A stretch of DNA of 64,000 nucleotides from a virus (IMGVR_UViG_3300041964_000148), one strand, 5' to 3'; shown: positions 38,713-47,373, counted from the stretch's first letter. Notes: generated by a model from the sequence alone, not told the origin. Numbers and translations are program-made.

Positions 38713-39183
38713 TTGTCGTATTACAGAGGTTTTTACGCTGTGCCTCGTTATTCCAATACACTCGAAGTCCGCTTTAATGTAGTCGAGGAGCATCGCTGGG
38801 AAGTTTACCAGGAGATGCCCAGCGTTGCTCAGTTGGGTGCCAGTGAGGCTCTCAAGCGCGACGGCTGGGTCTTTTTTGTCCGAGACAGCGATCGCATCGT
38901 TCCGTATTATTTCGATGCCAGTAGCCTAACTATTTACCCATTTACAGGCAATGTTGTCGTTGCCCCTCGGAAACTTAGGACACGCATCGGCAATGGGACA
39001 GATCGAGAATTTATCGTTAACCACGGGTTCAACTCTTTGGATGTTGATGCGTCGGCATGGGAGTTTGTCGCAACTCGTAGGTACAGAATTGAATGTAATA
39101 TCTTTAAGGTAGATGAAAATAGTATAGGTTTTGAGTTTTCCGAGCCGCCGACACAGGATGCTATCGAAGTTTTGATCGGTTAG
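38713..39183 (+). CDS. putative tail-associated protein
   Basis: IGNG....F.V.H.FN..DV...D.NSI..F..PP domain, related to the C-terminus of 33655..36525. Confidence 0.55.
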   Translation: MSYYRGFYAVPRYSNTLEVRFNVVEEHRWEVYQEMPSVAQLGASEALKRDGWVFFVRDSDRIVPYYFDASSLTIYPFTGNVVVAPRKLRTRIGNGTDREFIVNHGFNSLDVDASAWEFVATRRYRIECNIFKVDENSIGFEFSEPPTQDAIEVLIG

Positions 39184-39193
39184 ATTAAGGCAC

Positions 39194-39232
39194 AAAAAAA
39201 GCCCCCACCAGGATTTCCTGGTGGGGCTTTTT
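39194..39232. terminator. bidirectional terminator closing the ribozyme operon
   Basis: A7-GCCCCCACCAGGA-TT-TCCTGGTGGGGC-T5. Confidence 0.85.
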
Positions 39233-39267
39233 AATATTTAGTGCCTGTTATTTGGCTTCAAAAAAGT

Positions 39268-40251
39268 TTAAGCACTGGCTACAGTTTTCTTAATTACTGT
39301 AAGAACTTCTTCGGGGGAGAGTAGAGATGCATATCCCTGTTCACTTCCTCCTACTTCAGAGTTCCCACCCCAACGCTTCTCAACCTCTTCCTCTCCCCGC
39401 TTTTGGGATTCAAGGAAATTGAGTTCGTCAAAGACAGCTTGAGAATTCCAAGTCGCCTCTGGCGAATAGCGGCCAATAGTGTACTTGAGATGTGGCTCAA
39501 ATTTGCCATTCGCCGTAAATTCGGGGTTGTATGCGATCGCATACTTGCCGAAGCGGTAGGCATAACCTGTCGCCCCAATATGCGCTGATTCTACGACAGC
39601 GATGTCGCCATCAACGGCAATGAGTTTGGATGCCTTGAATGCATCCATTTTTGTTTTGATGCCCTTTTCGCGGCTACCCTCTGGTTCAACACCAGCGATA
39701 AGCCACTTCAGGACATTTACAACCTTTTGCTTAACTCCGACAGAATCGACTGCTCGTTCACGCACATAGGAGTGCATGGCAATTAGCGGATCTTTCTGGA
39801 GTTTTTCTGCATACTCCTCTGAAGACATTTCTGTCTGTGATTCTCGTACCCAGCCCCCCTTGTCGGATTTGTCCACAAGGGCAATTCGTTGAACGAAATC
39901 TCCATCAGGCTGGACACCCAGCTCATCAAAGCTTAACTGTCCATGCTTTTTAAGGAGGACTGCGGCGGCGCAGTACGCATCCAGATCTTCTTTGCCGATA
40001 AATACGGCACTGTCATGAGGTACTCGCCAGAAATGTCCGTCTGTGAACATTTCGATGGCAAAGGCCGCCGCGCTATATGGCTTATTACTTCCATCATGCT
40101 GAGGATCGATATTGAAATCCAAGGCATCAACTGCCCAAGGATAGGCTTCGGCTCCAAAGCATAAGCAGTCATATTCCTTCTTGATGCGCTCAATGAGAGC
40201 GACATCTTCGGCTTGATTGCGGGGGTTTAGGACGTAGAATGTAATGCTCAT
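39268..40251 (-). CDS. hypothetical protein, possible DHH-like phosphoesterase fold
   Basis: ID.QH, DLD, KYTI, WGG..VGGS; start moved to the ATG after GCAAAACC, downstream of the ribozyme. Confidence 0.65.
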   Translation of the reverse strand: MSITFYVLNPRNQAEDVALIERIKKEYDCLCFGAEAYPWAVDALDFNIDPQHDGSNKPYSAAAFAIEMFTDGHFWRVPHDSAVFIGKEDLDAYCAAAVLLKKHGQLSFDELGVQPDGDFVQRIALVDKSDKGGWVRESQTEMSSEEYAEKLQKDPLIAMHSYVRERAVDSVGVKQKVVNVLKWLIAGVEPEGSREKGIKTKMDAFKASKLIAVDGDIAVVESAHIGATGYAYRFGKYAIAYNPEFTANGKFEPHLKYTIGRYSPEATWNSQAVFDELNFLESQKRGEEEVEKRWGGNSEVGGSEQGYASLLSPEEVLTVIKKTVASA

Positions 40252-40291
40252 GGGTTTTGCTTGATCACGGAGAACCGTGACGATAGTTTTT

Positions 40292-40344
40292 GCTCCCTCA
40301 CTATTTTTCACCCAGGCTTGGGACTGGCGTCGGCTAGTTTAAGC
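40292..40344 (-). ncRNA. twister ribozyme (P1 type)
   Basis: GCU-UAA-ACUA-GC-CGACG-CCAG-UCCCAAGC-CUGG-GUGAAAAA-UAGU-GAGGG-AGC; predicted cut U40341/A40340. Confidence 0.88.
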
Positions 40345-40384
40345 GGCTCCCCCAAGGGGAGCCTAACTTTCATTAAACTGAGAT

Positions 40385-40873
40385 TTACTTTGATAACTTA
40401 TTTACCCATTGAAGCTGTGGGTTTTGCTCTCTAAAGGCAGAATCCCATTTATATCGCCCCATTTCTGGATGGTATGGAAAGTCATTTTCCCACCACACAG
40501 AGATACATTTTTTTAGCGATTCTAAGGTTATCATTCCTTCTACTGATGGAACACTATACCCAGAAGCCGCAGATGACTGTATTTGGGAACAAGGTATTGC
40601 TTTGAAATTAATTCCCCGCTCTAAACATCGCGAGATAATTTCCCCTAAAGCAAATATGGAATCTCTTCCAAAATCTAAAGATAGGCAATTTTGAGATTCT
40701 TGATATCGAACCTGAGAAGTGTAACTAAGAAGACTGCTATCTGGTAACTGTGTCGCAGTTCCATGATAATCGTCGTCTTCGTCTATTTTGGGAGCAAACG
40801 AGGGAAATACCTGAAATACTGCTTCTTTCGCTAGCTCTGAATTTTCTAAGAATAAAAATCTGGCTGAAAACAT
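40385..40873 (-). CDS. hypothetical protein
   Basis: GCAAAACCATG leader; flanked by ribozymes. Confidence 0.7.
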   Translation of the reverse strand: MFSARFLFLENSELAKEAVFQVFPSFAPKIDEDDDYHGTATQLPDSSLLSYTSQVRYQESQNCLSLDFGRDSIFALGEIISRCLERGINFKAIPCSQIQSSAASGYSVPSVEGMITLESLKKCISVWWENDFPYHPEMGRYKWDSAFREQNPQLQWVNKLSK

Positions 40874-40893
40874 GGTTTTGCATTATAAATTTT

Positions 40894-40945
40894 GCTCCCT
40901 CTGCATTTTTATCCAGGCTGGGGACTGGCATTGGCTGCATTAAGC
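40894..40945 (-). ncRNA. twister ribozyme (P1 type)
   Basis: GCU-UAA-UGCA-GC-CAAUG-CCAG-UCCCCAGC-CUGG-AUAAAAA-UGCA-GAGGG-AGC, close to the canonical rice twister; predicted cut U40942/A40941. Confidence 0.92.
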
Positions 40946-40970
40946 GGCTCCCAAGGGAGAGCCTTTACAT

Positions 40971-41996
40971 TTATATGAGCGCTTCGTGGGCGATCGCATT
41001 AATGTAAGCGATCGCATCCTCGTAGGTTGGGCGAGATGGGTACTCGTGAACCCCTATTTTTAGCTCAAACAGGGAAACTGGTTCCCCGAACGGGTCATTT
41101 GGGTTCTGCACCCTCGGACTTTTGCTTGTCGAGTGGCAGTATCGATCAAATAGGATGTATTTTTCTAACGTCCCTCCTTGGAGGAAGCGCTCAACGTCTT
41201 CCTCAAATGTTCGGTCTTTTGGAATAGAGTATTCTACTCCTTGAGTCCAAAAAGACTTGGACTGAACAAGGGGCATTGCTAACTTTACATGGCGTTTGCC
41301 AAGTTCAGTTGCCGCTAAATCCCAGAAAACTGCCAAGGCTTGTAGTAACTCTTCCGAGAGATCTTCTCGGTCTAGATTTAAACTGGACAACGGATGCCCA
41401 ATAACTTCATGATTGCCGTATCCTGTCCAGCGACAGTAATCCAACAAAAATTCCTCAGGGTTTTCGGGGACAACCCATCCCCATTTAATCGCTAGAAGAA
41501 GACCTTCTGCGATCGCCCATCCTACCGAATTGTTGGGGCAGTGAAGCAATCGCTGCGTCAGTCGCCCCTCTTGGGCGGCTTCAAGACTGTCATTGTTCTG
41601 GTAGCTTGTCCAGCACCAGGCCCAAGCTACAAGAGAACTTCGTAAATGTGCATGGGCGAAGTTGGGTGTATAGTTTAGGGCAATTACATCGAATATTGTT
41701 GTCCAGTAGCCCCACTCTGCTATTTCCGCCAACTTCCCCCATCCCATTTGGTTATGGGGATCGGGCAGATCGTATATCGGCTTCTCGAATATCGCGTATT
41801 CGCTTATTCCAGTTGCAATTCGTGCAATTTCTCGCACCTTTTCCGGATGTTCGTCGTCGCAGCAGGCAAGCAGATATCTTGCCGCGAATGACAAGTCACT
41901 TCCGTCTTCCAACGCTGCTATCTTCTCGATCTCTTCAATATGGCGATTGTTGATAATTGAGGCGATCATTCGTTCGATTTTTTCTTCAGATTGCAT
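40971..41996 (-). CDS. hypothetical protein
   Basis: 341-aa ORF; GCAAAACCATG leader. Confidence 0.75.
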   Translation of the reverse strand: MQSEEKIERMIASIINNRHIEEIEKIAALEDGSDLSFAARYLLACCDDEHPEKVREIARIATGISEYAIFEKPIYDLPDPHNQMGWGKLAEIAEWGYWTTIFDVIALNYTPNFAHAHLRSSLVAWAWCWTSYQNNDSLEAAQEGRLTQRLLHCPNNSVGWAIAEGLLLAIKWGWVVPENPEEFLLDYCRWTGYGNHEVIGHPLSSLNLDREDLSEELLQALAVFWDLAATELGKRHVKLAMPLVQSKSFWTQGVEYSIPKDRTFEEDVERFLQGGTLEKYILFDRYCHSTSKSPRVQNPNDPFGEPVSLFELKIGVHEYPSRPTYEDAIAYINAIAHEALI

Positions 41997-42035
41997 GGTT
42001 TTGCTTGATCACGGAGAACCGTGACGATAGTTTTT

Positions 42036-42088
42036 GCTCCCTCACTATTTTTCACCCAGGCTTGGGACTGGCGTCGGCTAGTTTAAGC
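42036..42088 (-). ncRNA. twister ribozyme (P1 type)
   Basis: Identical to the copy at 40292..40344; predicted cut U42085/A42084. Confidence 0.88.
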
Positions 42089-42113
42089 GGCTCCCAAGAG
42101 GGAGCCTATGTTG

Positions 42114-42695
42114 TTAGTTGTAAATAGAAGAGATATCCAAAATCTCATCTATCTTTTCCTGGTCTAATCCGATAATTTCGCGTTGTTTATAATAGCGGAA
42201 ATTATCATTTTCAGACATGAATTGGATGCGTTCAGCAATAGGGAGGCGAATGATTCGCTCATACGTTACTGGTAGTAGTATGTAGAAATCGTCTGAACTG
42301 AACTCAGGGTCATACCCTAAATCATCTTCGTCTGAAGAGATCCAACACGCTAGCCCAGCTTCCATTTGAAGTTTTTTTTCTACCTCGAAAACTACTTCAG
42401 ATATTCCAGCCTTTCCAGATGAAAAACAATGCCAGTCATAAGGCGCGTTATCTGATTTGTATAGGTTCGCGAACCTGTTGTCTGGAATGTCTTCGTTGCA
42501 GTGAAAAGATGCTGCTATGCCTTGGCTTCCCATCATTCCATTCCAGTGGAGCTGAATGTTTTGAACCACAATTTTTCGATTGAACAAATCCAGCATGAGC
42601 TGAATTTCTTGGTCGGTTACGAAATGGCGCTTTATTTGACGCATTTGGTGATGTGCTTCGTATTTGTACTCGTACATTAGAATTTTCCCTTTCAT
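42114..42695 (-). CDS. hypothetical protein
   Basis: Start moved to MKGKIL after AGCAAAACC. Confidence 0.7.
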   Translation of the reverse strand: MKGKILMYEYKYEAHHQMRQIKRHFVTDQEIQLMLDLFNRKIVVQNIQLHWNGMMGSQGIAASFHCNEDIPDNRFANLYKSDNAPYDWHCFSSGKAGISEVVFEVEKKLQMEAGLACWISSDEDDLGYDPEFSSDDFYILLPVTYERIIRLPIAERIQFMSENDNFRYYKQREIIGLDQEKIDEILDISSIYN

Positions 42696-42710
42696 GGTTT
42701 TGCTGATTTT

Positions 42711-42764
42711 CTCAATTGGTTGGCTATCCACACCCGCCGCGAGGAGGCTTGAGTATTTGGGTGC
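42711..42764 (-). ncRNA. minimal HDV-like ribozyme (no P4)
   Basis: GCACCC-AAAUA-CUCAA-GCC-UCCUCGC-GGC-GGGUGU-GG-AUAGCCAA-CCAA-UUGAG; predicted cut 5' of G42764. Confidence 0.85.
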
Positions 42765-42808
42765 ATTGCCCCCGAAGGGGCAGGGGAGGATTTAATCCTC
42801 TAAGAACA

Positions 42809-42982
42809 CTAAGGAGGAGTGTCATTTTCTTCGCTTTTCCACCTCTCCTCTAAGAAGTTTTCGCGCTCTAGCTCTTCATTCTTCTGTCCGGCATACCAGA
42901 CCATTAATTGGTTGAGTTTCCATGCGTTTTCAGCATTGGGGTTAGCTTTGAAGGCTTCAAAAGCTTTATCTAGTTGGTTCAT
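42809..42982 (-). CDS. small hypothetical protein
   Basis: MNQLDKAFEAF.. after an AAAGG RBS, downstream of the twister. Confidence 0.65.
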   Translation of the reverse strand: MNQLDKAFEAFKANPNAENAWKLNQLMVWYAGQKNEELERENFLEERWKSEENDTPP

Positions 42983-43001
42983 TGATTTACCTTTGTAAAT
43001 T

Positions 43002-43057
43002 ACACCTCTCTGCGTTAGGGGCTGGAGACCCTTAGCTTTCGCTAGGCGCATTAGTAC
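43002..43057 (-). ncRNA. twister ribozyme with P3 hairpin
   Basis: GUAC-UAA-UGCGCC-UAGC-GAAA-GCUA-AGGG-UCUCCAGC-CCCU-AA-CGCA-GAGAG-GUGU; pseudoknot covaries to CUC/GAG; predicted cut U43053/A43052. Confidence 0.8.
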
Positions 43058-43106
43058 GCCCCCAAAGGGGCGGGGGAGGATTTAATCCTCTAGATTTACG
43101 CTATTA

Positions 43107-43385
43107 TCAACTAGCCAATTTAACATTCCATTGACTTCCCATACCCATGTCATACTGACGACGGCACGAGACTGGAAACTTCTCTCCATCTATTTCTGTA
43201 TGTCCTTTGTAGTCTTCTCCTCCTCCGTAAGCGTCAGAAAAAGTATTGGTACGCTCAAGATGAAAGACTAAATCATAGCGAGTACTCTCTGGAATAGTTC
43301 TAATTTTGTCAAGCAGTGATGGAGTCCGGATGTGTACTCCGTCAGTTACCGCTTTTCTCATTTGTTCCATTGTCCACTGTGTCAT
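43107..43385 (-). CDS. hypothetical protein
   Basis: 92-aa ORF between ribozymes; AAGGA RBS. Confidence 0.7.
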   Translation of the reverse strand: MTQWTMEQMRKAVTDGVHIRTPSLLDKIRTIPESTRYDLVFHLERTNTFSDAYGGGEDYKGHTEIDGEKFPVSCRRQYDMGMGSQWNVKLAS

Positions 43386-43417
43386 TTGTTTTTCCTTGTC
43401 ATGGTTTTGCTGATTTT

Positions 43418-43471
43418 CTCAATTAGTTGTATATCCACACCCGCCACGAGGAGGCTTGAGTATTTGGGTGC
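43418..43471 (-). ncRNA. minimal HDV-like ribozyme (no P4)
   Basis: GCACCC-AAAUA-CUCAA-GCC-UCCUCGU-GGC-GGGUGU-GG-AUAUACAA-CUAA-UUGAG; predicted cut 5' of G43471. Confidence 0.88.
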
Positions 43472-43506
43472 ATGGGCGATAACTCAAGAGAGCGATCGCC
43501 TGACTA

Positions 43507-44334
43507 TTAGTCCTTTAAATAAATTGCGTTAGGTGGTACGGGGGTTAGTACTTCCTCCGTCTCGTAATCCCAAGGTTCTTGACTTTTTCGCTTATGAACG
43601 AAAGAGACCAAAAACTTTTGATTACCCTCTTCTTTAAGAAGTTCTGAACGCATATCAACGTTGATTCTAGGAGCATCATTTAGCTCCCATTGATTGTCAG
43701 GAACCTCTAGTAAATCAACAAGCATATTGGGTTTGTTGATTAACCATTTTTCAATACTCTCGAAGTCGTCAAGGCTGCAACCGTAGTAGCCCTGTAGAGT
43801 TAAGTTGAGCGTTTTATCTACGCTTATTCCGCTCCATCCACTGTCATAGTAGTATGGGACAGATTCTAACCCTTTTTCAAGGATTGATGTTGCTGCAAAT
43901 TGAATTGCTTCTTCACAAGAGTGAAACTCTTTGCCTAGTAATTGCTGAAGAGTTGCTTGGAGATCCTTTAAAGGTTTTCCAAAAACTACGTCTTTAGCAG
44001 CAAAGACTACTTCATTGCGAAACCGTTCATCGCTAGCAGCTAATGTTACTGCCTCTGCGGCTGTGACAAGAATGCATCTTCCGTCCCAGTCTTCATCTTC
44101 GTCTCGTGGAACGTCGTACCCATCTTTGGCGAGGAATACCAGCGCTTCATCGGGAATGAGGATTTCATAAATTCCGAAGTTATCCCATCCTTCTGGAAGG
44201 TATGGGTAGGCGAACCCAACCTTTCCCTCTAATAAGAAAGAGAGGTGATTGCGATCGCTTCCGTGGTAACTGTCTCCTGGTTTTACAGGGGAAAAGTTTA
44301 TTCCACTTCCTAAGCTGTGATAGAAAATTGTCAT
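43507..44334 (-). CDS. hypothetical protein
   Basis: 275-aa ORF; AAAGCAAAACCAATG leader. Confidence 0.75.
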   Translation of the reverse strand: MTIFYHSLGSGINFSPVKPGDSYHGSDRNHLSFLLEGKVGFAYPYLPEGWDNFGIYEILIPDEALVFLAKDGYDVPRDEDEDWDGRCILVTAAEAVTLAASDERFRNEVVFAAKDVVFGKPLKDLQATLQQLLGKEFHSCEEAIQFAATSILEKGLESVPYYYDSGWSGISVDKTLNLTLQGYYGCSLDDFESIEKWLINKPNMLVDLLEVPDNQWELNDAPRINVDMRSELLKEEGNQKFLVSFVHKRKSQEPWDYETEEVLTPVPPNAIYLKD

Positions 44335-44354
44335 TGGTTTTGCTTTAATTAAAT

Positions 44355-44414
44355 GTACCCTTCTGCGTTTATTCAGACTTAGGACTGACAGCTAATAGCT
44401 GGTCGCATTAGTAC
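44355..44414 (-). ncRNA. twister ribozyme with P3 hairpin
   Basis: GUAC-UAA-UGCG-AC-CAGCU-AUU-AGCUG-UCAG-UCCUAAGU-CUGA-AUAAA-CGCA-GAAGG-GUAC; both pseudoknots covary (CCU/AGG, AC/GU); predicted cut U44410/A44409. Confidence 0.9.
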
Positions 44415-44443
44415 GCCCCCGAAGGGGCATTAGTTTATCTGTA

Positions 44444-45115
44444 TCAAGAAACGGCTTCAAAGATTGAAGCTAAATTCTTGAAAGTTTTGAAATAAAATGT
44501 GCCGTATTTTACCCATTGATGGTAGTTACCATCATGAATGGGCGTATGCTCACTTGAGCGAGCATCATACACAACTGGATTACTTGGAAGTGTTCGTATC
44601 TTTTGCTCCATCCCTTCAATTAGAAGGGTTGAAGAGATTTTATCCCACCACAGCACCCATAAGTCATCCCAAGCTCGTCGCCCGTCTGCTATCTGCATCT
44701 CTGGATAAAGACACAAGAAAACAAACTCAGGCATTAGTTCTTCCCAACTATAGGGAATTCCTTGTCGGCGATGGTCTTTTTTCTCAACCATTTTTGGCTG
44801 TTTTTTCATGAATTCTGCGATCACTGTCGGTTGCAGTAACGGGACAGGGATACAAGCGTAAGCTTCCCCTTCTCCTATAGATATTCCGGCTAAGTCGTAG
44901 TAGGCGTTGTCTCCTGCATCTTCGTAGACCAGGGAACAAGCCCCTGACTCATAAGCAGTAGCCCAAAGCAAGTTGGCGTAGAAAAGGAGGGTTTCATTTC
45001 CCTCGTGTGCCACCGCCTTGGCTTTGAACTTGTTACTTAGATTGATTGCCATTTTTGCTCTGGTAGAAGCATCTGGCATGATTTCAGTTTTGGCATTGAT
45101 TTGTTGATTCGTCAT
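44444..45115 (-). CDS. hypothetical protein
   Basis: Start moved to MTNQQ, downstream of the ribozyme. Confidence 0.7.
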   Translation of the reverse strand: MTNQQINAKTEIMPDASTRAKMAINLSNKFKAKAVAHEGNETLLFYANLLWATAYESGACSLVYEDAGDNAYYDLAGISIGEGEAYACIPVPLLQPTVIAEFMKKQPKMVEKKDHRRQGIPYSWEELMPEFVFLCLYPEMQIADGRRAWDDLWVLWWDKISSTLLIEGMEQKIRTLPSNPVVYDARSSEHTPIHDGNYHQWVKYGTFYFKTFKNLASIFEAVS

Positions 45116-45141
45116 TGTTTTTACTGATGGTTTTGCTTTAT

Positions 45142-45194
45142 GTTCAATTGGTTGGTTATCCGCACCCGCCGCGTGGAGGCTTGAACTTGGGTGC
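45142..45194 (-). ncRNA. minimal HDV-like ribozyme (no P4)
   Basis: GCACCC-AA-GUUCAA-GCC-UCCACGC-GGC-GGGUGC-GG-AUAACCAA-CCAA-UUGAAC; P2 covaries relative to the other two copies; predicted cut 5' of G45194. Confidence 0.87.
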
Positions 45195-45219
45195 ATTGCC
45201 CCCGAAGGGGCGGGAGGAA

Positions 45220-45591
45220 TTAAAGCCTCCAAGTCGTGTCGCGTCCCTGTCTGGGATCTTTTCCGCAACCGTTGTTCTGGGTTGCGGCGACTCTATCTCT
45301 TTCAGCTTGCTTCCGGTTTAGTTCTTCAACTCGCTCAAGTTTTACAAGCTGCTCACGCAATTTCTTGAGTTGAGGCTCTAACTCTTTCTGGAGAGCGATC
45401 GCTGTCCGCTGTTGGGCTCGCAGCGAATCTATCTCCGCTTGAATTGCAGCAAGAACCTCTGGAGGTTTATTCCGCTTCTTGGCTCCAAGAGGCTGGAGTT
45501 TCCTGCTACAATCCCATCGCTGGGATGTAGCAATATCAAGTTGCTGTTCTAGTGAGGCAATTTCTTGTCTCAATTTGTTAATGTCAGTCAT
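45220..45591 (-). CDS. coiled-coil hypothetical protein
   Basis: TAATG-coupled to the upstream gene. Confidence 0.7.
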   Translation of the reverse strand: MTDINKLRQEIASLEQQLDIATSQRWDCSRKLQPLGAKKRNKPPEVLAAIQAEIDSLRAQQRTAIALQKELEPQLKKLREQLVKLERVEELNRKQAERDRVAATQNNGCGKDPRQGRDTTWRL

Positions 45592-46028
45592 TAGTTGCTC
45601 TGGCAGAAATGGCAGTCGTACCCAGTACGGTACTCTCCGCTAGCCCCGTTGAAGGAGCCACAATACCCGCAGTAATCTCCGTTGCCACAGAGATGCTCTG
45701 TGACCGTTTTGAAATACAGGGGCTTGATTAAGCAGAAGTCGCCTTCTACCCGCATTCCATAAGTGCCGAAGCTGCTTCCGTCAGAACGGAATGGGCGGAA
45801 TAGTTTCCACTCTTCGCCCCCATTTTGCCAACTAACAATGGTGTCGTTTTGGCGCTGGGGAGGGGTTTTCTCTCCGATTGCGAAGGTGTCTTTTACTTGG
45901 CAAGCAACAAGATGGTTGTTTTCCATCTCATTGATTTCCTCGGCAGACTTCTCTTTGAAACGAGAAGAACTCCTTACCGTAGTGAAATTTTGGTAAAGAT
46001 CACTCGTGAACATATAGTAATTCATCAT
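45591..46028 (-). CDS. hypothetical protein with C-terminal Zn ribbon (first gene of the operon)
   Basis: CGYCG..CHFC; ATG after AGCAAAACC. Confidence 0.7.
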   Translation of the reverse strand: MMNYYMFTSDLYQNFTTVRSSSRFKEKSAEEINEMENNHLVACQVKDTFAIGEKTPPQRQNDTIVSWQNGGEEWKLFRPFRSDGSSFGTYGMRVEGDFCLIKPLYFKTVTEHLCGNGDYCGYCGSFNGASGEYRTGYDCHFCQSN

Positions 46029-46052
46029 GGTTTTGCTTCCTAACATAATACC

Positions 46053-46082
46053 ATTGTAACATTTGTGTTACACCACCGTCAA
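46053..46082 (-). promoter_or_regulatory. sigma-70 promoter with overlapping palindromic operator
   Basis: TTGACG-N18-TACAAT with TG extension; palindrome TGTAACA-N4-TGTTACA at 46055..46072. Confidence 0.7.
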
Positions 46083-46156
46083 TCTGTCTTTCAACAGTAT
46101 ACGTAGCACTGGAAGACCCCACTTCCATCACTTTCAAGTTATGAAGCTATGAACTA

Positions 46157-46867
46157 TCACAGTCCTCTGGGAGTGGGGCGATAGTGGGCGATCGCACCCT
46201 CTAGTTGCTCAACCAATCTTTCCCTCACACCTGATTGGCTCAGTACTTTGCAATCCTTCCCGTACCGGATGATTTCCCGGATGAACCAGAAGGTACTTGT
46301 AATCCTGCGGGTGACGACCTTCACCTTGCCGTCCCAAGAGTCAAGCCGATCCTTCTCCCCCTCCCTGAAGGCGTGAGCCAGCCCTCTGTATAATTCAAAC
46401 TGCACAGGAATCGTTGCCATGCCTTCTTCCCGCCAAGTGCTGGCATCCAGCGGGAAGAAGGCATCAGCGTTAGTTACGCGGTCAAACCGGAAGCACCAGT
46501 TATGGCGCAGTGGCTCTAAGTCCTGGTTATCCTCGGTTTCATCGCACCAGCATTCGAGGTAGTAGTAGCCCTCTCTAAGCACTCGCTCTCCGTAGCGAAC
46601 GGTGAAGACAAAGGGTTTGCCCGCTGCATCTGCGTAGGAGAAACGAAAGGGAGTTTTGTTGCACAACAGTTCTAAAATCTTCCTCGCCTGGGGTGAGTCT
46701 AGGCTGGGAGGTATGCTTGTTTCGACTGCTTCGTGTGCGATCGCCTTGTAGAAAGCCGTCTGATTTCCTTCTTCGCCCCACAGGTATCCGTGTTTGGCTG
46801 CGATCACCTTGAATTGCCGTTGCTCCTCTTCAGTAACACTGAGTTGGACTGTATTTCGCTTGCTCAT
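46157..46867 (-). CDS. WYL-domain transcriptional regulator (RHH-like N-terminus, cyanobacterial type)
   Basis: QLSV.E.E...F..IA..HG..WG..GN; F.FSY.DA.G; YLECWCDETE; NW.FRFDR; FWF.REI.RYG..C.V. Confidence 0.85.
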   Translation of the reverse strand: MSKRNTVQLSVTEEEQRQFKVIAAKHGYLWGEEGNQTAFYKAIAHEAVETSIPPSLDSPQARKILELLCNKTPFRFSYADAAGKPFVFTVRYGERVLREGYYYLECWCDETEDNQDLEPLRHNWCFRFDRVTNADAFFPLDASTWREEGMATIPVQFELYRGLAHAFREGEKDRLDSWDGKVKVVTRRITSTFWFIREIIRYGKDCKVLSQSGVRERLVEQLEGAIAHYRPTPRGL

Positions 46868-46947: not shown

Positions 46948-47373
46948 ATGCTCGACATATTCGACAAAGACGGAACCTTAGTTGAAACCAAGTCTGGAGA
47001 ACCGTTTCCCAAGCTTGGCGACCAAAGGTTGATCTCAGGAGTCAAAGAGCGAATCGCGGATTCGGCTGCCGCAGGCAACATCATTGTTGTTGCTAGCAAT
47101 CAAGGTGGCATTGAGAAAGGGTACAAGCCCTTGGAGGATGCGATCGCAGAATTCCAGGAGGTGATGAAACTTCTTCCTGAAATTAGTATGTGTCTTTTTT
47201 GCCCTGATTTTGCAGGTAATGATTGCTGGATAGTTGCAAATCCCTTGCAAAATGCCATTAACGTTTTTCCTCCAGATACAACCCATGTACTCTTCCGCTC
47301 TAGTAGTTTAAACGAAATATTTATTTCATTCGCGTACAGAGCGGGGAAGAACAACAACGTACCAACTCTTTGA
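46948..47373 (+). CDS. HAD-family (GmhB / PNKP 3'-phosphatase-like) protein, apparently C-truncated
   Basis: FDKDGTL, ASNQGG, FCP; later KP and GD motifs not seen. Confidence 0.7.
   Translation: MLDIFDKDGTLVETKSGEPFPKLGDQRLISGVKERIADSAAAGNIIVVASNQGGIEKGYKPLEDAIAEFQEVMKLLPEISMCLFCPDFAGNDCWIVANPLQNAINVFPPDTTHVLFRSSSLNEIFISFAYRAGKNNNVPTL

What the first reader, a model, noticed from the sequence alone, without database searches (positions are those of the whole stretch)
40345..45211. Constant cassette grammar: strong hairpin 2-5 nt upstream of every predicted cut
Seen: GC-rich hairpins without U-tracts abut each ribozyme at 45198-45211, 44415-44428, 43475-43500, 43058-43071, 42767-42782, 42089-42106, 40946-40963 and 40345-40363. 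Three are GCCCC-UUCG-GGGGC. Both ribozyme types cut at or near their own 5' edge. Each upstream product would therefore end in a hairpin, a short tail and a cyclic phosphate. Each downstream product would begin with 5'-OH and a folded ribozyme. Inference: both ends are shielded (3' exonuclease block; 5'-OH is a poor activator of 5'-monophosphate-dependent RNase E/J decay), and the hairpin may insulate ribozyme folding. The same hairpin precedes both classes, so the parts look interchangeable.
Basis: partly seen in the sequence, partly recalled or inferred. Interest (0 to 1): 0.75.

Follow-up and report, generated by a model that had tools for sequence, protein, structure and literature searches.

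The report
Protective hairpin before each ribozyme cut
In a phage-like operon of a soil-crust cyanobacterium, every gene junction is a short strong RNA hairpin followed at once by a self-cutting RNA of one of two classes, so each cut-out message probably ends in a protective hairpin; relatives use a terminator plus a promoter at the same junctions.

Summary
All eight hairpins lie at the stated coordinates on the minus (sense) strand. None has a U-tract, and each ends 2-5 nt before the predicted cut of a twister (5) or a minimal HDV-like ribozyme (3). Both folds are supported by covariation.

The pattern is conserved. In six independent loci, 20 of 20 non-redundant junctions have such a hairpin, against 3.7% of random positions. 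At least five hairpin sequences are used.

After the same conserved 123-aa gene, the same cUUCGg hairpin is followed by HDV-like, twister-a or twister-b. Distant relatives have a hairpin with a U-tract plus a promoter there instead. The operon itself ends in a true terminator.

Best reading (about 0.55): the hairpin is the 3'-end cap of each ribozyme-released mRNA. This is the malE-malF/papBA principle with a cis-encoded nuclease. It may also stack on the 3-4 bp twister P1.

A thermodynamic test gave no support for folding insulation. The 5'-OH argument fails for RNase J. No RNA data exist, so cleavage and stability are inferred.

This scan has noted hairpin-preceded twisters in a phage before (e1-5324691). 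Ribozyme-punctuated operons have been known since 2011. This is a new variant of a known kind.

The parts
46053..46082 (-). Best promoter-like site (TTGACG-18-TGnTACAAT) heading the operon
   Evidence: 10 of 12 matches with an extended -10. It lies just upstream of the first gene (start 46046).
45220..46046 (-). Two head genes (151 aa and the conserved 123-aa coiled-coil H2) that overlap at ATGA, with no ribozyme between them
   Evidence: H2 is 54-72% identical in five other loci.
45213..45230 (-). AU-loop hairpin GGAGGCUUUAAUUCCUCC holding the H2 stop codon in its loop; first of a double hairpin
   Evidence: conserved in L015, L012 and L023.
45198..45211 (-). J1 hairpin, type A: GCCCC-UUCG-GGGGC (cUUCGg tetraloop). 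AAU tail, then the cut between 45195 and 45194.
45132..45194 (-). J1 minimal (P4-less) HDV-like ribozyme; G1 = 45194
   Evidence: 84 bits
44415..44428 (-). J2 hairpin, type A, flush against twister P1 (GUAC). Cut between 44410 and 44409.
44355..44414 (-). J2 twister, type P1 (subtype a)
   Evidence: 55.9 bits, E 1.7e-10
43475..43500 (-). J3 hairpin, type C: GGCGAUCGCUCUCUUGAGUUAUCGCC. CAU tail. Cut between 43472 and 43471.
   Evidence: the L015 orthologue has a C-G to U.G change.
43407..43471 (-). J3 HDV-like ribozyme
   Evidence: 78 bits
43076..43090 (-). J4 AU-loop hairpin GAGGAUUAAAUCCUC (non-coding here)
43058..43071 (-). J4 hairpin, type A variant: GCCCC-UUUG-GGGGC. Cut between 43053 and 43052.
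43002..43057 (-). J4 twister (subtype b; no Rfam hit, P1 GUAC/GUGU)
   Evidence: 48.5 bits, E 2.4e-10
42786..42800 (-). J5 AU-loop hairpin GAGGAUUAAAUCCUC
42767..42782 (-). J5 hairpin, type A with an extra U-A pair. AU tail. Cut between 42765 and 42764.
42700..42764 (-). J5 HDV-like ribozyme
   Evidence: 78.4 bits
42089..42106 (-). J6 hairpin, type B: GGCUCCC-UCUU-GGGAGCC, flush with P1. Cut between 42085 and 42084.
42035..42089 (-). J6 twister (subtype c)
   Evidence: 68.4 bits
42008..42025 (-). Post-twister leader hairpin GUCACGG-UUCU-CCGUGAU, ahead of AAGCAAAACC-AUG. It is a copy of a palindrome found 8 times in the window.
   Evidence: compensatory variants in L015 and L018.
40946..40963 (-). 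J7 hairpin, type B with one U.G pair. Cut between 40942 and 40941.
40893..40946 (-). J7 twister (subtype c')
   Evidence: 77.5 bits
40345..40363 (-). J8 hairpin, type B with an extra C-G pair (8 bp, 3-nt loop). Cut between 40341 and 40340.
40291..40345 (-). J8 twister (subtype c, identical to J6)
40264..40281 (-). Second copy of the post-twister leader hairpin
39268..45115 (-). Eight cassette ORFs with no Pfam or PHROG family: 45115-44444, 44334-43507, 43385-43107, 43051-42809, 42695-42114, 41996-40971, 40873-40385, 40251-39268
39203..39226 (-). True intrinsic terminator (10-bp GC stem followed by a U7 tract) ending the operon

Best explanation
Proposed mechanism. The junction hairpin is the 3'-end cap of each message released by ribozyme cleavage. 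One promoter, downstream of a WCX/WYL-type regulator gene, drives a long transcript. The hairpins lack U-tracts, so RNA polymerase reads through them. The twister or HDV-like ribozyme directly behind each hairpin then cuts 0-5 nt past the stem.

The upstream cistron is left ending in a very stable stem-loop (often cUUCGg). Its tail is too short to give 3'-5' exonucleases a foothold. Its 2',3'-cyclic phosphate cannot be extended by tailing enzymes. The downstream cistron starts with 5'-OH on a compact folded ribozyme. In the subtype-c twister junctions with the longer leader (J6 and J8 here, and two in other loci) a further hairpin follows, ahead of a conserved GCAAAACC-AUG leader.

Hairpin plus ribozyme therefore does, from a single promoter, what terminator plus promoter does at the same junctions in related elements. 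In the twister junctions the hairpin is flush with a minimal 3-4 bp P1. It probably also stacks on P1 and props it up before cleavage.

Shown versus inferred. Shown: anatomy, conservation, class swapping, and absence of terminator features. Inferred: cleavage in vivo, read-through, and stabilisation.
For: 1. Position. 20 of 20 non-redundant junctions in six loci (window, L015, L012, L018, L023, L007) have a single hairpin of -9.1 to -15.7 kcal/mol (minimal stem) ending 0-5 nt before the cut. Random positions give 3.7%.

2. Structure is kept while sequence changes.
- At least five hairpin sequences occupy the same place (types A-E).
- Within type B there is a U-A to A-U swap, an added C-G pair and U.G wobbles.
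- Within type C there is a C-G to U.G change.
- G.U pairs work only in RNA of the sense strand.

3. The hairpin is always on the 5'-product side. It stays the same while the ribozyme class changes. After orthologous gene H2 the junction is type A + HDV-like (window, L012), type A + twister-a (L015), or type A + twister-b (L018, L023).

4. Distant relatives (L019, L025) have no ribozymes. After the same H2 gene and other genes they carry similar GCUCCC...GGGAGC hairpins with a U-tract, followed by a TGTGATAAAAT promoter. L012 mixes both junction types.

5. No junction hairpin is terminator-like on the sense strand. The operon ends in a real terminator.

6. Hairpins after genes are the norm in this genome: 22 of 48 other genes. 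The junction hairpins therefore fit as gene-end elements.

7. Precedent.
- 3' stem-loops protect the upstream cistron after endonucleolytic cleavage (malEFG), and 5' structures protect the downstream one (papBA) (PMC5927463).
- Ribozyme arrays flank single genes in prophages (PMC3088659).
- Processing into transcripts of different stability has been proposed (PMC6765202).
- HDV-like theta ribozymes cut within 1 nt of a structured 3' end, a tRNA (PMC10879173).
Against: - There are no RNA data. Cleavage, read-through and half-lives are untested.
- Ribozyme scores are below Rfam's gathering threshold, and no Rfam HDV family matched.
- Many copies are paralogous or orthologous, so '20 of 20' overstates independence. 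Covariation within type B alone is statistically weak (88 of 500 shuffles reach it).
- The data do not separate a 3'-cap role from a ribozyme-helper role. Type-B hairpins always travel with subtype-c twisters (6 of 6). The type-C hairpin and its HDV-like ribozyme move together between non-homologous genes. Both facts tie the hairpin to the ribozyme as much as to the upstream gene.
- The stop codon lies only 4-10 nt before several hairpins. Terminating ribosomes would melt them transiently.
- Cyanobacterial exonuclease behaviour on 2',3'-cyclic-phosphate ends is assumed from E. coli and B. subtilis knowledge.
Confidence: 0.55

Rival explanations
1. The hairpin is mainly a ribozyme helper or insulator. 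It stacks coaxially on the very short twister P1. It keeps upstream ORF sequence and trailing ribosomes from mispairing with or unfolding the ribozyme. It plays the role of the P(-1)-type upstream helix known to aid the HDV ribozyme. This is not exclusive of the best explanation.
For: - In all 11 twister junctions the hairpin abuts P1 with 0 nt between them. P1 is only 3-4 bp and is the least well-paired helix (73% of cells).
- Type-B hairpins co-occur with subtype-c twisters 6 of 6 times. The type-C hairpin and its HDV-like ribozyme move as one unit.
- HDV-like junctions keep an invariant AU at positions -2 and -1.
- 7 of 13 unrelated phage twister-P1 copies also have an abutting GC hairpin, against a 25% baseline. 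One of three solitary cyanobacterial twisters does too (L011).
- From own knowledge: an upstream hairpin facilitates folding of the genomic HDV ribozyme (Chadalavada et al. 2000). Synthetic RiboJ couples a ribozyme with a hairpin.
Against: - A thermodynamic test compared the probability of the native nested helices in 100-nt context with the hairpin intact, shuffled or deleted. It gave no consistent gain: wild type better in 12 of 19 (shuffled) and 9 of 19 (deleted), with geometric mean ratios of 0.99 and 0.51. The test is crude: no pseudoknots and no kinetics.
- The same hairpin serves two unrelated folds, which argues against a fold-specific contact.
- HDV-like ribozymes need nothing upstream of position -1.
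- 6 of 13 phage twisters and 2 of 3 solitary cyanobacterial twisters lack such a hairpin.
Confidence: 0.25
2. The hairpins are leaky terminators or pause sites. They may be relics of terminators that lost their U-tract. They would grade transcription down the array, with the ribozyme merely trimming read-through RNA.
For: - Related elements have true terminators with similar GCUCCC...GGGAGC stems at the same junctions.
- From own knowledge: cyanobacteria lack Rho, so hairpin-dependent events dominate termination.
- On the opposite strand, three of the hairpins are followed by T-rich tails.
Against: - None of the eight has 5 or more U in the 8 nt after the stem on the sense strand (sequences).
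- The U-tract is replaced in every case by ribozyme sequence.
- Downstream genes are conserved and carry their own leaders, so substantial read-through is needed.
- Stems of 5-7 bp without a U-tract are poor terminators in studied systems (own knowledge).
Confidence: 0.1
3. The hairpins are DNA-level or protein-level signals: recombination sites that bound mobile cassettes (attC-like), or binding sites for an element-encoded protein.
For: - Related strains in soil metagenomes differ by whole-cassette deletions and replacements whose breakpoints fall inside junction modules. Examples: 40338>40940; 43071>45191 replaced by 334 nt; 42004>45148.
- Junction modules are direct repeats.
Against: - The breakpoints are equally well explained by homologous recombination between repeated ribozyme or hairpin modules. 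One joint has 13 shared letters, another 25.
- The hairpins are 14-26 nt, far shorter than attC sites.
- U.G wobble pairs (J7, L015) would be mismatches in DNA of the other strand.
- Several unrelated sequences occupy the site, which argues against a sequence-specific protein.
- No integrase gene was seen beside the arrays in the gene tables.
Confidence: 0.07

Closest known systems
3'-protective intercistronic stem-loops after endonucleolytic cleavage (malE-malF REP hairpin; 'programmed differential operon decay', Dar and Sorek 2018, PMC5927463) and the papBA 5' stem-loop
   Same: A stable stem-loop just upstream of an internal cut shields the upstream cistron from 3'-5' exonucleases. A structured 5' end shields the downstream one. 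The structures are conserved between relatives.
   Different: Here the cut is made in cis by a ribozyme at a fixed nucleotide, not by RNase E. The ends are 2',3'-cyclic phosphate and 5'-OH rather than 3'-OH and 5'-P. Every junction of the operon is equipped, and the module is repeated and shuffled.
Ribozyme-punctuated phage and prophage operons (hammerhead arrays, Perreault et al. 2011, PMC3088659; twister and other classes near phage genes, reviewed in PMC6765202)
   Same: Self-cleaving ribozymes flank single small genes of variable identity in a mobile, phage-like element. Processing into single-gene mRNAs has been proposed.
   Different: Two unrelated classes (twister and minimal HDV-like) alternate in one operon, in a cyanobacterium. 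Twisters were found in only 2 of 151 cyanobacterial genomes sampled. A conserved abutting hairpin is part of the unit; the papers read here do not mention it ('terminator' occurs 0 times in PMC3088659).
Twister ribozymes in bacterial 3'-UTRs (Felletti, Bieber and Hartig 2017, RNA Biol 14:1522; cited in PMC6765202; paper not held, content from own memory)
   Same: As I recall its abstract, reporter output depended on the stabilising properties of the secondary structure left at the 3' end after twister cleavage. That is the principle proposed here.
   Different: That was reporter work on individual motifs. I could not check whether a natural, conserved upstream hairpin was described. It involved no HDV-like partner, no class swapping and no terminator/promoter alternation.
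Theta (minimal HDV-like) ribozymes of gut phages (Kienbeck et al. 2024, PMC10879173)
   Same: A minimal HDV-like ribozyme has its cut site within about 1 nt of the 3' end of a structured RNA and so defines that end.
   Different: There the structured RNA is a tRNA and the proposed role is tRNA 3' maturation. Here it is a simple hairpin at the end of an mRNA, in a cyanobacterial element from soil crust.
Intrinsic (Rho-independent) terminators
   Same: A GC-rich stem-loop shortly after the stop codon. Related elements have real terminators with similar stems at the same junctions.
   Different: There is no U-tract. The U-tract and the following promoter are replaced by a ribozyme.
Synthetic insulators and operon-stability parts (RiboJ; Cetnar and Salis, bioRxiv 10.1101/2020.07.22.216051)
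   Same: A ribozyme plus hairpins is used to give each cistron defined, protected ends independent of its neighbours. J6 and J8 even have a ribozyme followed by a hairpin followed by the translation start, as in RiboJ.
   Different: This case is natural, conserved and uses two ribozyme classes. The key hairpin lies upstream of the ribozyme.

Membership tests
Twister ribozyme, type P1 (Rfam RF03160) | Score at or above the Rfam gathering threshold (67.2 bits) | tested here: not met
   Four copies score 44.1-55.9 bits (E 4e-7 to 1.7e-10). The J4 copy has no Rfam hit. The shortfall is mainly due to the missing or short optional stem.
Twister ribozyme, type P1 (Rfam RF03160) | P1-P2-P3 nested helices around the conserved UAA...GCC...GUCCCAAGCC...UAAA...GAGGG core, supported by covariation | tested here: met
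   Alignment A4 of 13 sequences: 89% of cells paired, all 11 pairs have compensatory change, and 0 of 500 shuffles reach the score. Core letters are aligned.
Twister ribozyme, type P1 (Rfam RF03160) | Self-cleavage between U and A of the UAA | not testable with these tools
   No RNA runs hold the locus. The cut site is assigned from published structures (own knowledge).
HDV-like ribozyme (minimal, P4-less; theta-like) | Nested double pseudoknot P1, P1.1, P2, P3 with a 7-nt L3 (UCCNCGY) | tested here: met
   Alignment A3 of 10 sequences: 99.4% of cells paired over 16 pairs in 4 helices, 7 pairs with compensatory change, slid controls 31-41%.
HDV-like ribozyme (minimal, P4-less; theta-like) | G1 at the cut site, paired G.U or G-C at the base of P1 | tested here: met
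   G1 is invariant. G.U in 6 of 10 and G-C in 4 of 10.
HDV-like ribozyme (minimal, P4-less; theta-like) | Catalytic cytosine in J4/2, and self-cleavage | tested here: inconclusive
   Invariant cytosines sit in the GGAUA..CAAC.AA linker before P2. Which one acts cannot be told, and activity was not tested. No Rfam HDV family matched at E up to 10.
Intrinsic terminator | GC-rich stem-loop directly followed by a U-tract | tested here: not met
   None of the eight junction hairpins is listed on the sense strand. The operon-end hairpin 39226-39203, followed by a U7 tract, is listed.
3'-protective intercistronic stem-loop (malEF type) | Stable stem-loop at the 3' end of the segment left by an internal cleavage, conserved among relatives | tested here: met
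   20 of 20 junctions; tails of 0-5 nt; hairpin kept with sequence turnover across six loci.
3'-protective intercistronic stem-loop (malEF type) | Measured stabilisation of the upstream cistron that depends on the stem-loop | not testable with these tools
   Needs half-life measurements.
Integron attC-type cassette boundary | Long imperfect inverted repeat with extrahelical bases, beside an integron integrase gene | tested here: not met
   Hairpins are 14-26 nt perfect or near-perfect stems. No integrase appears among the called genes of the arrays. U.G pairs point to RNA-level selection.

The most novel reading that the evidence does not exclude
Hairpin-plus-ribozyme modules are an evolutionarily interconvertible, cis-encoded substitute for terminator-plus-promoter pairs in phage-like elements of Rho-less cyanobacteria. 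The unusual end chemistry they create (2',3'-cyclic phosphate on a hairpin, 5'-OH on a folded ribozyme) acts as a regulated lifetime switch. The polynucleotide kinase/3'-phosphatase gene kept next to these operons would read that switch: healing the ends would license tailing and RNase E/J attack, or religation.
Probability: 0.15. Interest if true: 0.85.

Novelty: new variant of a known kind. Interest (0 to 1): 0.6.

Why it matters
What most bacterial and phage self-cleaving ribozymes do is still open (PMC6765202). This locus gives a clean natural experiment.

- The same genes occur with hairpin + twister, hairpin + HDV-like, or terminator + promoter at their junctions.
- This argues that the ribozyme's job is to make gene-sized messages with defined, capped ends.
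- It also shows that the hairpin, not just the ribozyme, is part of the functional unit.

The question becomes testable with a handful of reporter constructs. The locus also supplies ready-made compact parts (a 14-nt cap, a 55-65-nt cutter and a leader) for building insulated operons in cyanobacteria. If abutting hairpins are general (7 of 13 unrelated phage twisters here), they should be added to ribozyme search models and to thinking about phage mRNA stability.

Tried and rejected
- Rfam at gathering thresholds: no hit in the whole window.
- Whole-genome search: no genome is held for this window.
- RNA evidence: no RNA holder is listed for the locus. Holders are DNA runs of biocrust and soil metagenomes only.
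- Genome-collection scan with the twister core: only two solitary twisters, in other cyanobacterial MAGs and in a different context.
- Metagenome scan with the HDV-like core: 6 hits, of which 5 were chance matches in GC-rich DNA and 1 was real (L007). The viral scan gave none.
- Twister-P1 in 151 cyanobacterial genomes: 2 hits, too few for a phylum-wide hairpin test.
- Homologues of the 151-aa head protein: only itself.
- Pfam and PHROGs on the cassette proteins: nothing. The Atlas gave only 'phage-like hypothetical' for the last gene and nothing usable for the 341-aa gene.
- Idea that the type-B hairpin's 3' arm (GGGAGCC) mimics the twister's 3' end (GGGAGCA) as a switch: dropped. In L015b the hairpin arm is GGGUGCC while the twister end is GGGGGCA.
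- Thermodynamic insulation test: no consistent effect.
- Formal covariation within type-B hairpins alone: weak. One compensatory pair, reached by 88 of 500 shuffles.
- tblastn of the L019 kinase-phosphatase against the window's PNK3P region: no match, so the two phosphatase genes are not close homologues.
- Felletti et al. 2017 could not be read. A literature search for ribozyme + intercistronic + stem-loop + exonuclease found no paper.

Full report
**What is there**

The feature lies on the minus strand. The DNA is rich in GCGATCGC (HIP1) and comes from biocrust metagenomes, so the host is a cyanobacterium.

The operon layout is as follows.
- The best promoter-like site of the region is at 46082-46053.
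- Two overlapping head genes follow: a 151-aa gene and a conserved 123-aa coiled-coil gene, called H2 here.
- Eight ORFs without any Pfam or PHROG family come next.
- A textbook terminator closes the operon (39226-39203, followed by a U7 tract).

Each of the eight junctions after H2 reads: stop codon, 4-30 nt, GC-rich hairpin, 0-4 nt, ribozyme, leader ending in GCAAAACC-AUG.

**The ribozymes are real enough to place the cuts**

- Four elements match Rfam twister-P1 at E 4e-7 to 1.7e-10, although below the gathering score.
- A fifth twister (J4) and three minimal, P4-less HDV-like elements were recognised by eye. Covariance models built from this window and related loci then recovered them (R2 and R1).
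- The HDV-like double pseudoknot is 99.4% paired over ten sequences. Seven pairs show compensatory change, and G1 is invariant with a G.U or G-C pair at the base of P1.
- All 11 nested twister pairs show compensatory change.
- From published structures (own knowledge), HDV-like ribozymes cut 5' of G1 and twisters cut between the U and the first A of UAA. That gives the eight cut sites listed under parts.

They fold alone with stem energies of -9.6 to -15.7 kcal/mol.
- They end 2-5 nt before the cut and lack U-tracts on the sense strand.
- Three are the hyperstable cUUCGg hairpin GCCCC-UUCG-GGGGC. With one mismatch allowed, this motif occurs only at four junctions in the window.
- Only 3.7% of random same-strand positions have such a hairpin ending within 5 nt.
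- A fair caveat: 22 of 48 other genes of the window also have a strong hairpin somewhere within 60 nt after their stop. The special points are the exact abutment, the short stems and the missing U-tract.

**Related loci make the case**

- The 341-aa cassette protein and H2 have few relatives (6 and 13 clusters). Their contigs hold the same operon.
- The shared layout is: WCX regulator, a roughly 160-aa gene, H2, a variable cassette array, a conserved last gene, and a terminator. A PNK3P phosphatase gene is often next door.
- ParA/ParB, methylase, RecD-like helicase or small-terminase genes lie nearby. This marks a phage- or plasmid-like element.
- The models find 12 further non-redundant ribozyme junctions in L015, L012, L018, L023 and L007. 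Every one has an abutting hairpin, so 20 of 20 in total.
- At least five different hairpin sequences occupy the site:
  - A: GCCCC-UUCG-GGGGC.
  - B: GGCUCCC-N4-GGGAGCC.
  - C: GGYGAUCGC...AUCGCC.
  - D: UUGCCC-CCUU-GGGCAA.
  - E: GCGAGCG-N13-CGCUCGC.
- Pairing is maintained through changes. Type B shows a U-A to A-U swap, an extra C-G pair and U.G wobbles. Type C shows a C-G to U.G change.
- U.G pairs make sense only in sense-strand RNA.

**Three comparisons point to the function**

1. After the orthologous H2 gene the hairpin is always type A, but the ribozyme differs. It is HDV-like in the window and L012, twister-a in L015, and twister-b in L018 and L023. Within the window, the same double hairpin precedes a twister (J4) and an HDV-like ribozyme (J5). 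The parts really are exchanged, with the boundary at the hairpin's 3' end.
2. More distant relatives (L019, L025; H2 58-63% identical to the window's H2) have no ribozymes at all. After H2 and other genes they carry similar GCUCCC...GGGAGC stems with a U-tract, followed by a TGTGATAAAAT promoter. L012 uses both junction types in one array.
3. The window's operon starts with a plain promoter and leader and ends with a plain terminator. Hairpin plus ribozyme therefore occupies exactly the niche of terminator plus promoter.

**Mechanism**

Most likely (about 0.55), the hairpin is the 3' cap of each ribozyme-released mRNA.
- The polymerase reads through.
- The ribozyme cuts just past the stem.
- The upstream message ends in a stable hairpin with a tail of 5 nt or less and a 2',3'-cyclic phosphate.
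- From general knowledge of PNPase, RNase II and RNase R, that tail is too short for a 3'-exonuclease foothold, and the cyclic phosphate cannot be extended by tailing.

This is the malE-malF principle, and the folded ribozyme at the new 5' end parallels the papA 5' stem-loop (PMC5927463). The nuclease, however, is encoded in cis.

In all 11 twister junctions the hairpin is flush with a 3-4 bp P1, the weakest helix. A second role as a stacking prop is therefore plausible (rival 1, about 0.25).

A thermodynamic test of 'folding insulation' showed no consistent benefit of the hairpin. It cannot see pseudoknots or kinetics.

From own knowledge, cyanobacteria have RNase J.

Leaky termination (0.1) and DNA- or protein-level signals (0.07) are less likely, for the reasons given under rivals.

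**Variation and generality**

- Contigs of related strains from four soil-metagenome studies differ by whole-cassette deletions or replacements. The breakpoints lie inside junction modules. This fits recombination between the repeated modules.
- Outside this family, 7 of 13 unrelated phage twister-P1 copies also have a GC hairpin abutting P1, against 25% of random positions by the same loose rule.
The grammar may be widespread but is not universal.

**What is known and what is new**

Already in the literature:
- Ribozyme arrays flanking single genes in prophages (PMC3088659).
- The idea that they yield transcripts of different stability (PMC6765202).
- 3'-protective stem-loops (PMC5927463).
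- HDV-like ribozymes that define a structured 3' end (PMC10879173).
- From memory, Felletti et al. 2017 showed in reporters that the structure left after twister cleavage sets expression. I could not read that paper.

What I did not find described:
- A conserved natural unit of hairpin plus ribozyme in which two unrelated ribozyme classes are swapped behind the same hairpin.
- The alternation of that unit with terminator plus promoter at orthologous junctions.
- Its occurrence in cyanobacteria, where twisters were found in only 2 of 151 genomes sampled.

I therefore rate it a new variant of a known kind, with interest 0.6. All functional steps remain inferred, because no RNA data exist for this DNA.

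Noticed in passing
window 46948-47373 (+); L017 29-334; L019 3191-4992: A PNK3P-domain (polynucleotide 3'-phosphatase) gene sits divergently next to the WCX regulator of the operon, and the synteny is kept in L017. In L019 a 349-aa P-loop kinase + PNK3P protein (like T4 Pnkp), an HD_4 protein and a Csx3-like protein lie just upstream. An end-healing enzyme beside an operon that makes 2',3'-cyclic-phosphate and 5'-OH ends may be meaningful. The two phosphatases are not close homologues.
   Followed up: partly
window 10077, 14580, 23947, 27453, 32669, 40265, 42009, 53074: The palindrome TCACGG-N4-CCGTGA occurs 8 times in the window (0.02 expected). Two copies are the post-twister leader hairpins of J6 and J8. 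It looks like a dispersed short hairpin repeat of the host genome, reused in the operon.
   Followed up: partly
window 43385-43410 (-): In the J3 leader the conserved GCAAAACC-AUG opens a 6-codon uORF (MTRKNK). Its stop overlaps the start of the 92-aa gene (AUGA), suggesting translational coupling. In J1 the same leader lacks the AUG, and the gene starts 14 nt further on.
   Followed up: no
window, minus strand: starts of genes at 46046, 44334, 43385 region, 42695, 41996, 40873, 40251: The leader motif GCARAAYC(N)AUG, without a Shine-Dalgarno sequence, precedes seven operon genes. It is shared with L015 and L018 but not with L012, L023 or L007.
   Followed up: partly
window 39100-46200 versus soil-metagenome contigs: Related strains show cassette presence/absence and replacement polymorphisms with breakpoints in the junction modules. 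Examples: 601-nt deletion 40338>40940 between two twisters; 43071>45191 replaced by 334 nt; 42004>45148.
   Followed up: partly
L019 4992-13208; L025 1827-2438: In the ribozyme-free relatives nearly every small gene has its own terminator and a promoter with the box TGTGATAAAAT preceded by TTAAAC(C/G)TTTAAT. This is a dense array of single-gene transcription units, probably recognised by one regulator or sigma factor.
   Followed up: no
window 39268-40251 (-): The conserved last gene of the operon (327 aa; about 53-80% identical in L012, L015 and L018) resembles clusters of hypothetical proteins mostly from tailed phages (feature score 0.95). The function is unknown.
   Followed up: partly
L011 1320-1391 (G093); L032, L028, L033, L031, L044: A solitary twister in another cyanobacterial genome, and about half of the unrelated phage twister-P1 copies, also have a GC hairpin flush with P1.
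   Followed up: partly
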